From the NCBI RefSeq assembly GCF_003018115.1, contig NZ_CP027457.1: DNA of 64,000 nt. One strand, 5' to 3'. The stretch's first letter is position 1. The number at the start of each line of letters is the position of its first letter. The position numbers and the translations under genes were made by a program. Shown one piece after another: positions 60,839-61,069 of this stretch. A model generated the notes under the pieces. It made no database searches. It was given only the letters and a program-made list of their open reading frames with translations, and was not told the DNA's origin. Source of the stretch: Escherichia coli (lineage in GTDB: Bacteria > Pseudomonadota > Gammaproteobacteria > Enterobacterales > Enterobacteriaceae).

Positions 60839-60928
60839 GCTCGCTGTTTTGTCTCTTTTGCCGTTAAAAATTAAGCTGAATTTTATAGCATTTTTTTAAC
60901 TGGCCTGTCAGGCAGTGGTGCGTTTTTC

Positions 60929-60944
60929 TACCGCTATTGAGGTA
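60929..60944. promoter_or_regulatory. Candidate NarL 7-2-7 heptamer pair upstream of fdnG
   Basis: TACCGCT at TGAGGTA matches the NarL heptamer consensus TACYYMT in inverted arrangement. Confidence 0.45.
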
Positions 60945-60991
60945 GGTCAATTTGCGCAGGCGGATTATTTTGTGGCAAACAGATGTTCTTT

Positions 60992-61005
60992 TTGATTTCG
61001 CGCAA
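60992..61005. promoter_or_regulatory. Candidate FNR site (TTGAT-N4-NNCAA) in the fdnG promoter
   Basis: ttgatttcgcgcaa about 70 nt upstream of the fdnG ATG; the 3' half-site is imperfect. Confidence 0.4.
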
Positions 61006-61069
61006 AAAGATTCAGAATTTTACTGTTAGTTTCCTCGCGCAGTAATACCCCTGAAAAAAGAGGAAAGCA

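What the first reader, a model, noticed from the sequence alone, without database searches (positions are those of the whole stretch)
60839..61069. fdnG control region with NarL 7-2-7 and FNR-like sites
TACCGCTATTGAGGTA and TTGATTTCGCGCAA lie at plausible distances upstream of fdnG, consistent with anaerobic nitrate induction. Both sites were identified by eye.
Basis: partly seen in the sequence, partly recalled or inferred. Interest (0 to 1): 0.3.

Follow-up and report, generated by a model that had tools for sequence, protein, structure and literature searches.

The report
Known fdnG nitrate/anaerobic promoter region

Summary
Window 60839-61069 is exactly the 231-bp yddG/fdnG intergenic region of E. 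coli. It differs from K-12 MG1655 at 2 bases, neither in a site.

- **Position of the sites.** TACCGCTATTGAGGTA (60929-60944) and TTGATTTCGCGCAA (60992-61005) coincide base-for-base with the published NarL 7-2-7 pair (heptamers -109/-100, centre -104.5) and the FNR site at -42.5. The other published NarL heptamers (-124, -77) also fall into register. Together these fix +1 at 61041.
- **Sequence evidence alone is modest.** The FNR consensus with ≤2 mismatches occurs 61 times in the window. With position-weight matrices the 7-2-7 ranks 2nd and the FNR site 8th of about 64,000 positions.
- **Conservation is decisive.** All 80 enterobacterial fdnG loci keep the FNR half-sites. In 74 of 81 sequences the best 7-2-7 lies exactly 62 bp upstream of the FNR centre. 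An extended -10 (TGnTAGTTT) is also conserved.
- **A stronger FNR-like site.** TTGAGGTAGGTCAA (60937-60950, -97.5) overlaps the right NarL heptamer. It is the only site here that passes the published genome-wide FNR threshold, lies nearest the published ChIP-seq summit, and is confined to Escherichia.
- **An unexplained block.** A conserved block at -78..-65 has no assigned function.

Verdict: interpretation supported; already known; low interest.

The parts
60914..60920 (-). NarL heptamer '-124' (AGTGGTG on + strand; CACCACT on - strand)
   Evidence: Listed for b1474 in PMC2718512 add. file 4; position -124 in PMC3349551; coordinates. Weak PWM score (1.9 bits) and not conserved across genera.
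60929..60944 (.). NarL/NarP 7-2-7 inverted heptamer pair TACCGCT-AT-TGAGGTA, centre -104.5 (heptamers -109 and -100)
   Evidence: Flagged as a 7-2-7 pair for b1474. PWM composite 12.18 bits, rank 2/63,985, 17/2000 shuffles. In 74/81 enterobacterial sequences the best 7-2-7 is exactly 62 bp upstream of the FNR centre. Outer TA..TA are 97-100% conserved.
60937..60950 (.). Second FNR-like site TTGAGGTAGGTCAA, centre -97.5, overlapping the right NarL heptamer
   Evidence: 15.81 bits, rank 2/63,987 in the window. It is the only yddG/fdnG entry in Myers et al. Table S6 (1545292, PatSer 14.43). The ChIP-seq summit 1545309 corresponds to window 60954. Present only in the Escherichia sequences.
60961..60967 (-). 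NarL heptamer '-77' (CGGATTA on + strand; TAATCCG on - strand)
   Evidence: Listed for b1474; position -77; 4.24 bits.
60963..60976 (.). Conserved block -78..-65 (GATTATTTTGTGGC here; GACTATTAAGGGGG in most other genera), function unassigned
   Evidence: Information content 1.2-1.9 bits per column in 74 anchored sequences. Retained in L062 and L074, which lack the divergent yddG. Poor NarL PWM match in other genera (my calculation from the matrix).
60992..61005 (.). FNR site TTGATTTCGCGCAA, centre -42.5 (class II position, overlapping the -35 region)
   Evidence: Centre is exactly -42.5 once +1 is fixed from the NarL heptamers. 10.45 bits, rank 8/63,987. Half-sites TTGAT and (C/T)CAA are invariant in all 80 related loci, while spacer bases vary.
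61024..61032 (+). Extended -10 element TG-T-TAGTTT (-17..-9)
   Evidence: TG 100%, and T-14, A-13, T-10 and T-9 99-100% conserved in 74 sequences. No -35/-10 consensus promoter found by the generic scan, as expected for an activator-dependent promoter.
61041..61041 (+). Inferred transcription start (+1, A), 29 nt before the ATG
   Evidence: Deduced from published site positions. A is present in 80% of related sequences at this column. Not measured here.
61046..61052 (+). Perfect-consensus NarL heptamer TACCCCT in the 5' UTR (+6..+12); role unknown
   Evidence: 9.1 bits, the best single heptamer in the intergenic region. Conserved in E. coli lineages only.
61058..61072 (+). Shine-Dalgarno AAGAGGA and fdnG ATG (61070)
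   Evidence: Annotated fdnG start in 5,403 E. coli genomes and in K-12.

Best explanation
This is the fdnGHI (formate dehydrogenase-N) operon control region of E. coli. It is an activator-dependent sigma-70 promoter with an extended -10 (TGnTAGTTT) and no usable -35.

Without oxygen, the FNR dimer binds TTGATTTCGCGCAA, centred at -42.5. There it overlaps the -35 region and recruits RNA polymerase as a class II activator.

With nitrate, NarX phosphorylates NarL. A NarL dimer then binds the inverted heptamer pair TACCGCT-AT-TGAGGTA centred at -104.5, helped by single heptamers at -124 and -77. This boosts FNR-dependent initiation. NarP can use only the 7-2-7 pair.

The two sites are 62 bp apart, about six helical turns, so both proteins sit on the same face of the DNA.

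Shown here: identity of the locus, exact register with the published positions, matrix scores, and deep conservation of the sites and of their spacing. Taken from the literature: FNR occupancy and FNR/NarL dependence. Inferred: the activation contacts and the same-face geometry.
For: - Locus identity: 100% match to E. coli chromosomes, present in 5,413 of 5,426 genomes, flanked by annotated yddG and fdnG. Two substitutions versus K-12 in 231 bp, none in a site.
- Register: the four database NarL heptamers of b1474 occur with spacings 23/9/15, equal to the published -77/-100/-109/-124. The FNR-like site then centres at -42.5.
- Matrix ranks: FNR site 8th, 7-2-7 2nd in 64 kb.
- Phylogenetic footprint, FNR site: all 80 fdnG loci from about 25 enterobacterial genera keep TTGATTTnn(C/T... 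)CAA with invariant half-sites and variable spacer.
- Phylogenetic footprint, 7-2-7: the best 7-2-7 lies exactly 62 bp upstream in 74 of 81 sequences and 61 bp in 3. This holds although the heptamer sequences themselves differ, and although the FNR-to-ATG distance varies from 67 to 216 bp.
- Core promoter: the extended -10 is conserved.
- Published biology: a 7-2-7 is reported for fdnG (PMC2718512). There is an FNR ChIP-seq/ChIP-chip peak at yddG/fdnG, and fdnG is 'activated by FNR in NO3- and by NarL' (PMC3688515). Review statement of dual FNR/NarL control (PMC11841067).
Against: - The -42.5 site scores below the stringent published genome-wide FNR threshold and is absent from Myers et al. 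Table S6. Its score of 10.45 bits is below every training site used here (minimum 11.71).
- The published ChIP-seq summit maps to window 60954 (about -87). That is closer to the -97.5 FNR-like site than to -42.5.
- The primary footprinting, mutagenesis and start-site papers (Li & Stewart 1992; Li et al. 1994; Darwin et al. 1996, 1997; Wang & Gunsalus 2003) could not be read here. The start site and binding are therefore taken second-hand.
- No generic sigma-70 promoter was detected. This is expected for a class II promoter.
Confidence: 0.95

Rival explanations
1. The upstream FNR-like site TTGAGGTAGGTCAA (-97.5), not or not only the -42.5 site, is a real FNR target in Escherichia. Because it overlaps the right NarL heptamer, FNR and NarL-phosphate would compete there. 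Upstream-bound FNR might damp the promoter without nitrate, as the -93.5 site does at yfiD, and NarL would relieve this.
For: - Highest FNR matrix score in the region: 15.81 bits, rank 2 in 64 kb.
- It is the only site in this intergenic region above the published threshold.
- The ChIP-seq summit is 10.5 bp from its centre, against 44.5 bp from the -42.5 site.
- Its half-sites are intact in all 7 Escherichia sequences, including E. albertii, where only a spacer base differs, while the next 10 bp vary.
- There is a precedent for a down-regulating upstream FNR site, yfiD -93.5, cited in PMC3688515.
Against: - It is absent from all non-Escherichia genera, which nevertheless keep the -42.5 site and the 7-2-7. 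It therefore cannot be the core mechanism.
- Its left half is constrained anyway by the NarL heptamer.
- ChIP-seq resolution does not separate sites 55 bp apart.
- From my recollection of Li & Stewart 1992 (not readable here), the -42.5 site was the one required for anaerobic induction.
Confidence: 0.2
2. The symmetric 7-2-7 (and/or the -97.5 FNR-like site) also serves the divergent yddG promoter.
For: - A plausible minus-strand promoter exists: CTGACA (60911-60906), 18-bp spacer, TGn-TATAAA (60890-60882). It would start near 60875 and put the 7-2-7 centre at about -61.5, a class I position (by eye).
- yddG is the divergent neighbour in 73 of 80 loci.
Against: - L062 and L074 lack yddG but keep the 7-2-7 at 62 bp from the fdnG FNR site.
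- The spacing is fixed relative to the fdnG promoter.
- Myers et al. assign the peak to fdnG, not yddG.
- No yddG start site or nitrate response was found in the searched literature.
- The putative promoter failed the generic scan.
Confidence: 0.1
3. The two motifs are chance resemblances with no regulatory role.
For: Consensus matches with two mismatches are common: 61 FNR-like hits in 64 kb against 37 expected, and 6 7-2-7-like hits against 3.5 expected.
Against: - Exact coincidence with the mapped positions.
- High matrix ranks.
- Invariant half-sites and fixed 62-bp spacing across genera, while neighbouring columns are randomised.
- Published in vivo FNR occupancy.
Confidence: 0.01

Closest known systems
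E. coli K-12 fdnGHI operon control region (Stewart laboratory; RegulonDB entries for b1474)
   Same: Same locus. 229 of 231 intergenic bases are identical. All four NarL heptamers, the FNR site, the -97.5 FNR-like site, the -10 and the 5' UTR are identical.
   Different: Two substitutions outside the sites (60857, 60957). The strain is not K-12; elsewhere in the window, sites listed by Myers et al. sit at different offsets from K-12 coordinates.
narGHJI promoter (FNR at -41.5, NarL heptamers from about -89 to -195, IHF)
   Same: Class II FNR site plus upstream NarL-phosphate co-activation, and the same physiological signal.
   Different: According to PMC4549865, narG lacks a 7-2-7 pair and needs IHF-mediated bending and distant heptamers. 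fdnG uses a 7-2-7 at a fixed 62 bp from FNR.
nirB, napF, yeaR and ogt promoters (NarL/NarP 7-2-7 sites at -69.5, -44.5, about -43, -44.5/-77.5)
   Same: NarL/NarP dimer on an inverted heptamer pair with 2-bp spacing.
   Different: There the 7-2-7 lies close to or overlaps the core promoter. In fdnG it is at -104.5, upstream of a separate class II FNR site.
yfiD promoter with tandem FNR sites (downstream activating site plus down-regulating site at -93.5)
   Same: Two FNR-type sites about 53-55 bp apart, the downstream one at the class II position (reference list).
   Different: A role for the fdnG -97.5 site is unproven, and the site overlaps a NarL heptamer.

Membership tests
FNR (CRP/FNR-family) class II activator site | Match to TTGAT-N4-ATCAA | tested here: met
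   TTGATTTCGCGCAA matches 8 of 10 half-site positions. PWM 10.45 bits, rank 8/63,987. It is below the stringent published threshold.
FNR (CRP/FNR-family) class II activator site | Centre near -41.5 relative to the transcription start, overlapping the -35 region | tested here: met
   Centre is -42.5 with +1 = 61041, deduced from published heptamer positions. It lies 28.5 bp upstream of the conserved -10 hexamer. The start site itself was not measured here.
FNR (CRP/FNR-family) class II activator site | Evolutionary conservation of half-sites with free spacer | tested here: met
   TTGAT and CAA are invariant in 81/81 sequences, while spacer positions -42/-41 vary.
FNR (CRP/FNR-family) class II activator site | FNR occupancy and fnr-dependent expression | not testable with these tools
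   Literature only. There is an FNR ChIP peak at yddG/fdnG, but it does not resolve -42.5 from -97.5. FNR dependence is stated in PMC11841067.
NarL/NarP 7-2-7 site | Two TACYYMT heptamers in inverted orientation separated by 2 bp | tested here: met
   TACCGCT (6/7) - AT - TGAGGTA (6/7). Composite PWM rank 2/63,985.
NarL/NarP 7-2-7 site | Coincidence with the experimentally annotated fdnG heptamers | tested here: met
   Identical to the b1474 pair 3a/3b in PMC2718512 add. file 4, and to positions -109/-100.
NarL/NarP 7-2-7 site | Conserved position relative to the promoter | tested here: met
   62 bp from the FNR centre in 74/81 sequences, 61 bp in 3, 39 bp in 3 distant genera, and 102 bp in 1.
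NarL/NarP 7-2-7 site | NarL-phosphate binding and narL-dependent nitrate induction | not testable with these tools
   Literature only. The primary footprint papers are not held.
Sigma-70 promoter | -35 and -10 hexamers with 16-18 bp spacing | tested here: not met
   The generic scan found none. Instead there is a conserved extended -10, TGnTAGTTT, with the FNR site in place of the -35. This is the expected layout of an activator-dependent promoter.

The most novel reading that the evidence does not exclude
In Escherichia only, a second and stronger FNR site at -97.5 has arisen on top of the right NarL heptamer, and it is the site nearest the published ChIP-seq summit. FNR bound there without nitrate could hold the promoter down, as at yfiD -93.5. 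NarL-phosphate would then act partly by evicting it, sharpening the nitrate dependence of formate dehydrogenase-N. Separately, the 14-bp block at -78..-65 is conserved across genera and is not explained by the NarL heptamer model. It could be the target of an unrecognised factor or of the RNA polymerase alpha C-terminal domain (alpha-CTD).
Probability: 0.15. Interest if true: 0.4.

Novelty: already known. Interest (0 to 1): 0.1.

Why it matters
The locus is a textbook example of combinatorial control: oxygen through FNR and nitrate through NarX-NarL. Confirming it adds nothing new about E. coli.

Three points have modest practical value:
- Consensus or matrix scanning alone would have mis-ranked the functional FNR site below a neighbouring one. 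This is a caution for automated annotation.
- The strict 62-bp FNR-to-NarL spacing across about 25 genera is clean comparative evidence for a face-of-helix requirement.
- The Escherichia-specific overlapping FNR/NarL site and the unexplained conserved block are cheap, testable leads.

Tried and rejected
- **Primary papers.** I tried to read them and none is held: Wang & Gunsalus 2003 (PMC180993), Li & Stewart 1992 (PMC206306), Lin & Stewart 2010 (PMC3068693), and Stewart & Bledsoe 2003 (PMC151514).
- **Text searches.** Searches for '104.5', '97.5', 'fdnG promoter' and ChIP-exo data gave nothing usable.
- **Generic promoter/terminator scan.** No hits in 60750-61150. This is explained by the activator-dependent layout.
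- **Rfam.** Nothing in the intergenic region. Only the SECIS element inside fdnG.
- **Conserved block -78..-65.**
  - A NarL heptamer: poor matrix score outside Escherichia.
  - The yddG promoter: rejected, because the block persists where yddG is absent.
  - By eye, IHF, Fis, ArcA, ModE, IscR and CRP consensus sequences: no convincing match. Myers et al. list no Fis, H-NS or IHF enrichment at the neighbouring -97.5 site.
- **The -97.5 site as a class II site for yddG.** Rejected. There is no -10-like hexamer at the required distance on the minus strand (read).
- **E. coli population-level variant counting.** Not done. The cross-genus comparison was judged more informative.

Full report
**What is there**

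The interval 60839-61069 is exactly the gap between the start codon of a minus-strand 293-aa gene (59957-60838) and the ATG of a plus-strand gene at 61070. A 601-bp query across it matches E. coli chromosomes at up to 100% identity and is present in 5,413 of 5,426 complete genomes. The flanking genes are annotated yddG and fdnG. Against K-12 MG1655 (NC_000913.3 1547170-1547400) the 231-bp intergenic region differs at two bases, 60857 and 60957. K-12 literature therefore transfers directly.

**Is it more than chance?**

By consensus alone, only modestly:
- TTGATNNNNATCAA with up to two mismatches occurs 61 times in the window, against 37 expected.
- TACYYMTNNAKRRGTA with up to two mismatches occurs 6 times, against 3.5 expected.

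I then built matrices from published sites with the fdnG entries left out:
- **FNR matrix.** It was built from 62 ChIP-supported FNR sites in Table S6 of Myers et al. 2013 (PMC3688515).
- **NarL matrix.** It was built from 68 curated NarL heptamers in MotifAdjuster additional file 4 (PMC2718512). The 7-2-7 composite scores 12.18 bits, rank 2 of 63,985, and is matched in 17 of 2,000 shuffles of the region.

The FNR site is nevertheless below the stringent threshold of Myers et al. and does not appear in their Table S6.

**Agreement with mapped sites**

The curated NarL heptamers for b1474 (fdnG) are CGGATTA, TGAGGTA, TACCGCT and AGTGGTG. The middle two are marked as a 7-2-7 pair. In the window their centres are 60964, 60941, 60932 and 60917.

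Babujee et al. 2012 (PMC3349551), citing Darwin et al. 1996, give the E. coli positions as FNR -42.5 and NarL heptamers -77, -100, -109 and -124. The spacings of 23, 9 and 15 bp fit exactly and put +1 at 61041, an A that lies 29 nt before the ATG. The centre of TTGATTTCGCGCAA (60998.5) is then exactly -42.5, and the 7-2-7 centre is -104.5.

MotifAdjuster also states that a 7-2-7 arrangement has been reported for fdnG.

**Comparative evidence**

A scan of one genome per species with the first 195 residues of FdnG returned 80 loci at 88-100% identity. They come from about 25 enterobacterial genera. yddG is the divergent neighbour in 73 of them.
- **FNR site.** Every locus has TTGATTTnnn(n)CAA upstream of fdnG.
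- **Conserved columns.** After anchoring on that site, 74 sequences align without gaps from -139 to +10. Four features stand out at 1.2-1.9 bits per column:
  - the FNR half-sites;
  - TG at -17/-16 with TAGTTT at -14..-9;
  - the outer TA...TA of the 7-2-7, plus C-107 and G-102;
  - a block at -78..-65.

  Most other columns are near zero.
- **7-2-7 spacing.** The best-scoring 7-2-7 in the 150 bp upstream of the FNR site lies exactly 62 bp from its centre in 74 of 81 sequences. It lies at 61 bp in 3 (two Salmonella subspecies and Pseudenterobacter), 39 bp in 3 distant genera, and 102 bp in one.
- **What varies.** The spacing holds although the heptamers differ (for example TAACCCTAAAGGATTA and TACTCCCTTATGGGTA). 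It also holds although insertions in the 5' UTR move the FNR centre from about 70 to 119-216 bp from the ATG.

This is the pattern expected of protein-binding sites with a stereospecific relationship. Sixty-two bp is about six helical turns; the same-face reading is my inference.

**Mechanism**

The generic sigma-70 scan finds no -35/-10 pair. That is consistent with an activator-dependent promoter in which the FNR site replaces the -35 and an extended -10 is used.
- **Anaerobiosis.** FNR at -42.5 acts as a class II activator.
- **Nitrate.** The NarX-NarL system places a NarL dimer on the 7-2-7, with auxiliary heptamers at -124 and -77, and raises FNR-dependent transcription. NarP binds only 7-2-7 arrangements.
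[quoted passage not shown] They class fdnG among operons with a peak but no FNR effect in glucose medium, 'activated by FNR in NO3- and by NarL'. A 2025 review restates the dual control.
- **Not checked here.** Protein-polymerase contacts and phase dependence come from general knowledge of class II activation and from my recollection of the Stewart laboratory papers. I could not open those papers.

**A second FNR-like site**

It is TTGAGGTAGGTCAA at 60937-60950, centre -97.5, scoring 15.81 bits and ranking 2nd in the window. It overlaps the spacer and right heptamer of the 7-2-7.
- It is the only yddG/fdnG entry in Myers et al. Table S6. Its coordinate there, 1545292, equals 133 bp before the K-12 ATG and so matches the window.
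- The ChIP-seq summit at 1545309 corresponds to window 60954, about -87. That is 10.5 bp from this site's centre and 44.5 bp from the -42.5 site.
- The site is confined to Escherichia. It is present in the window, K-12 and all five Escherichia-type loci, with E. albertii changing only a spacer base. It is absent from the other genera.

It therefore cannot be the ancestral mechanism, but it may matter in E. coli. A down-regulating upstream FNR site is known at yfiD (-93.5; reference list). Competition between FNR and NarL here is an untested possibility. I recall that Li & Stewart 1992 noticed this -97.5 similarity and found -42.5 to be the site needed for anaerobic induction, but I could not verify this.

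**Unexplained**

The block at -78..-65 has the consensus GACTATTAAGGGGG, and reads GATTATTTTGTGGC in E. coli. It is almost as conserved as the FNR site.
- It overlaps the '-77' NarL heptamer.
- It extends over 14 bp.
- It scores poorly as a NarL heptamer outside Escherichia.
- It persists in two loci that lack yddG.

I could not assign it. An RNA polymerase alpha C-terminal domain (alpha-CTD) contact, a degenerate inner core of a second 7-2-7, or another factor are all possible.

**Verdict**

This is the already-known fdnG operon control region. The residual novelty lies only in the Escherichia-specific overlapping FNR/NarL site and the conserved block.

Noticed in passing
window 61652-61710 (and the TGA at 61655-61657): fdnG has a single in-frame TGA at codon 196. 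It is followed immediately by an Rfam SECIS_3 match (84.3 bits, E 5e-20). This is the expected selenocysteine codon and insertion element of FdnG.
   Followed up: partly
window 61046-61052: A perfect-consensus NarL heptamer, TACCCCT, lies in the fdnG 5' UTR (+6..+12). It is the best single heptamer score in the region (9.1 bits). It is conserved in E. coli lineages but not in E. albertii or other genera, and its role is unknown.
   Followed up: partly
window 60882-60911, minus strand: A plausible yddG promoter: CTGACA, 18-bp spacer, then TGn-TATAAA, giving a predicted start near 60875. It is nearly invariant within Escherichia. It would place the symmetric NarL 7-2-7 at about -61.5 of yddG. 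The generic scan did not detect it because the -10 lacks the final T.
   Followed up: partly
window 60963-60976; the same columns in L006-L075: A 14-bp block (GACTATTAAGGGGG in most genera) is conserved nearly as strongly as the FNR site. The NarL heptamer model does not explain it, and it is retained where yddG is absent.
   Followed up: partly
L076, L078, L079 (Enterobacteriaceae bacterium LSJC7, Tenebrionibacter, Cedecea): In these distant genera a good 7-2-7 (for example TACTCAATTAGGGGTA) lies 39 bp rather than 62 bp upstream of the FNR centre, at about -81.5. These loci also lack the divergent yddG. This is an alternative promoter architecture.
   Followed up: no
L006-L022, L030, L032, L020, L041, L044: Citrobacter, Salmonella and some other loci carry insertions of about 50-150 bp in the fdnG 5' UTR. 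The FNR centre is 119-216 bp from the ATG instead of about 70. The upstream FNR/NarL geometry is unchanged. The nature of the inserts was not examined.
   Followed up: no
L033, L004, L014: Three metagenome-assembled genomes appear mislabelled:
- one labelled Delftia acidovorans carries a Klebsiella-type yddG-fdnG locus;
- a 'Citrobacter sp.' contig is 99% E. coli-like here;
- an 'uncultured Raoultella' contig is identical to Citrobacter braakii in the aligned 174-bp upstream region.
This suggests mis-binning or mislabelling.
   Followed up: no
window 15250-15263, 54565-54578, 57682-57695: Other high-scoring FNR-matrix hits occur in the window. TTGATGCACGTCAA and TTGATCAACGTCAC match sites listed by Myers et al. 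for yncL/ydcX and narZ/narU. Their offsets from K-12 coordinates differ from that of fdnG, so this strain has insertions or deletions relative to K-12 between them.
   Followed up: no
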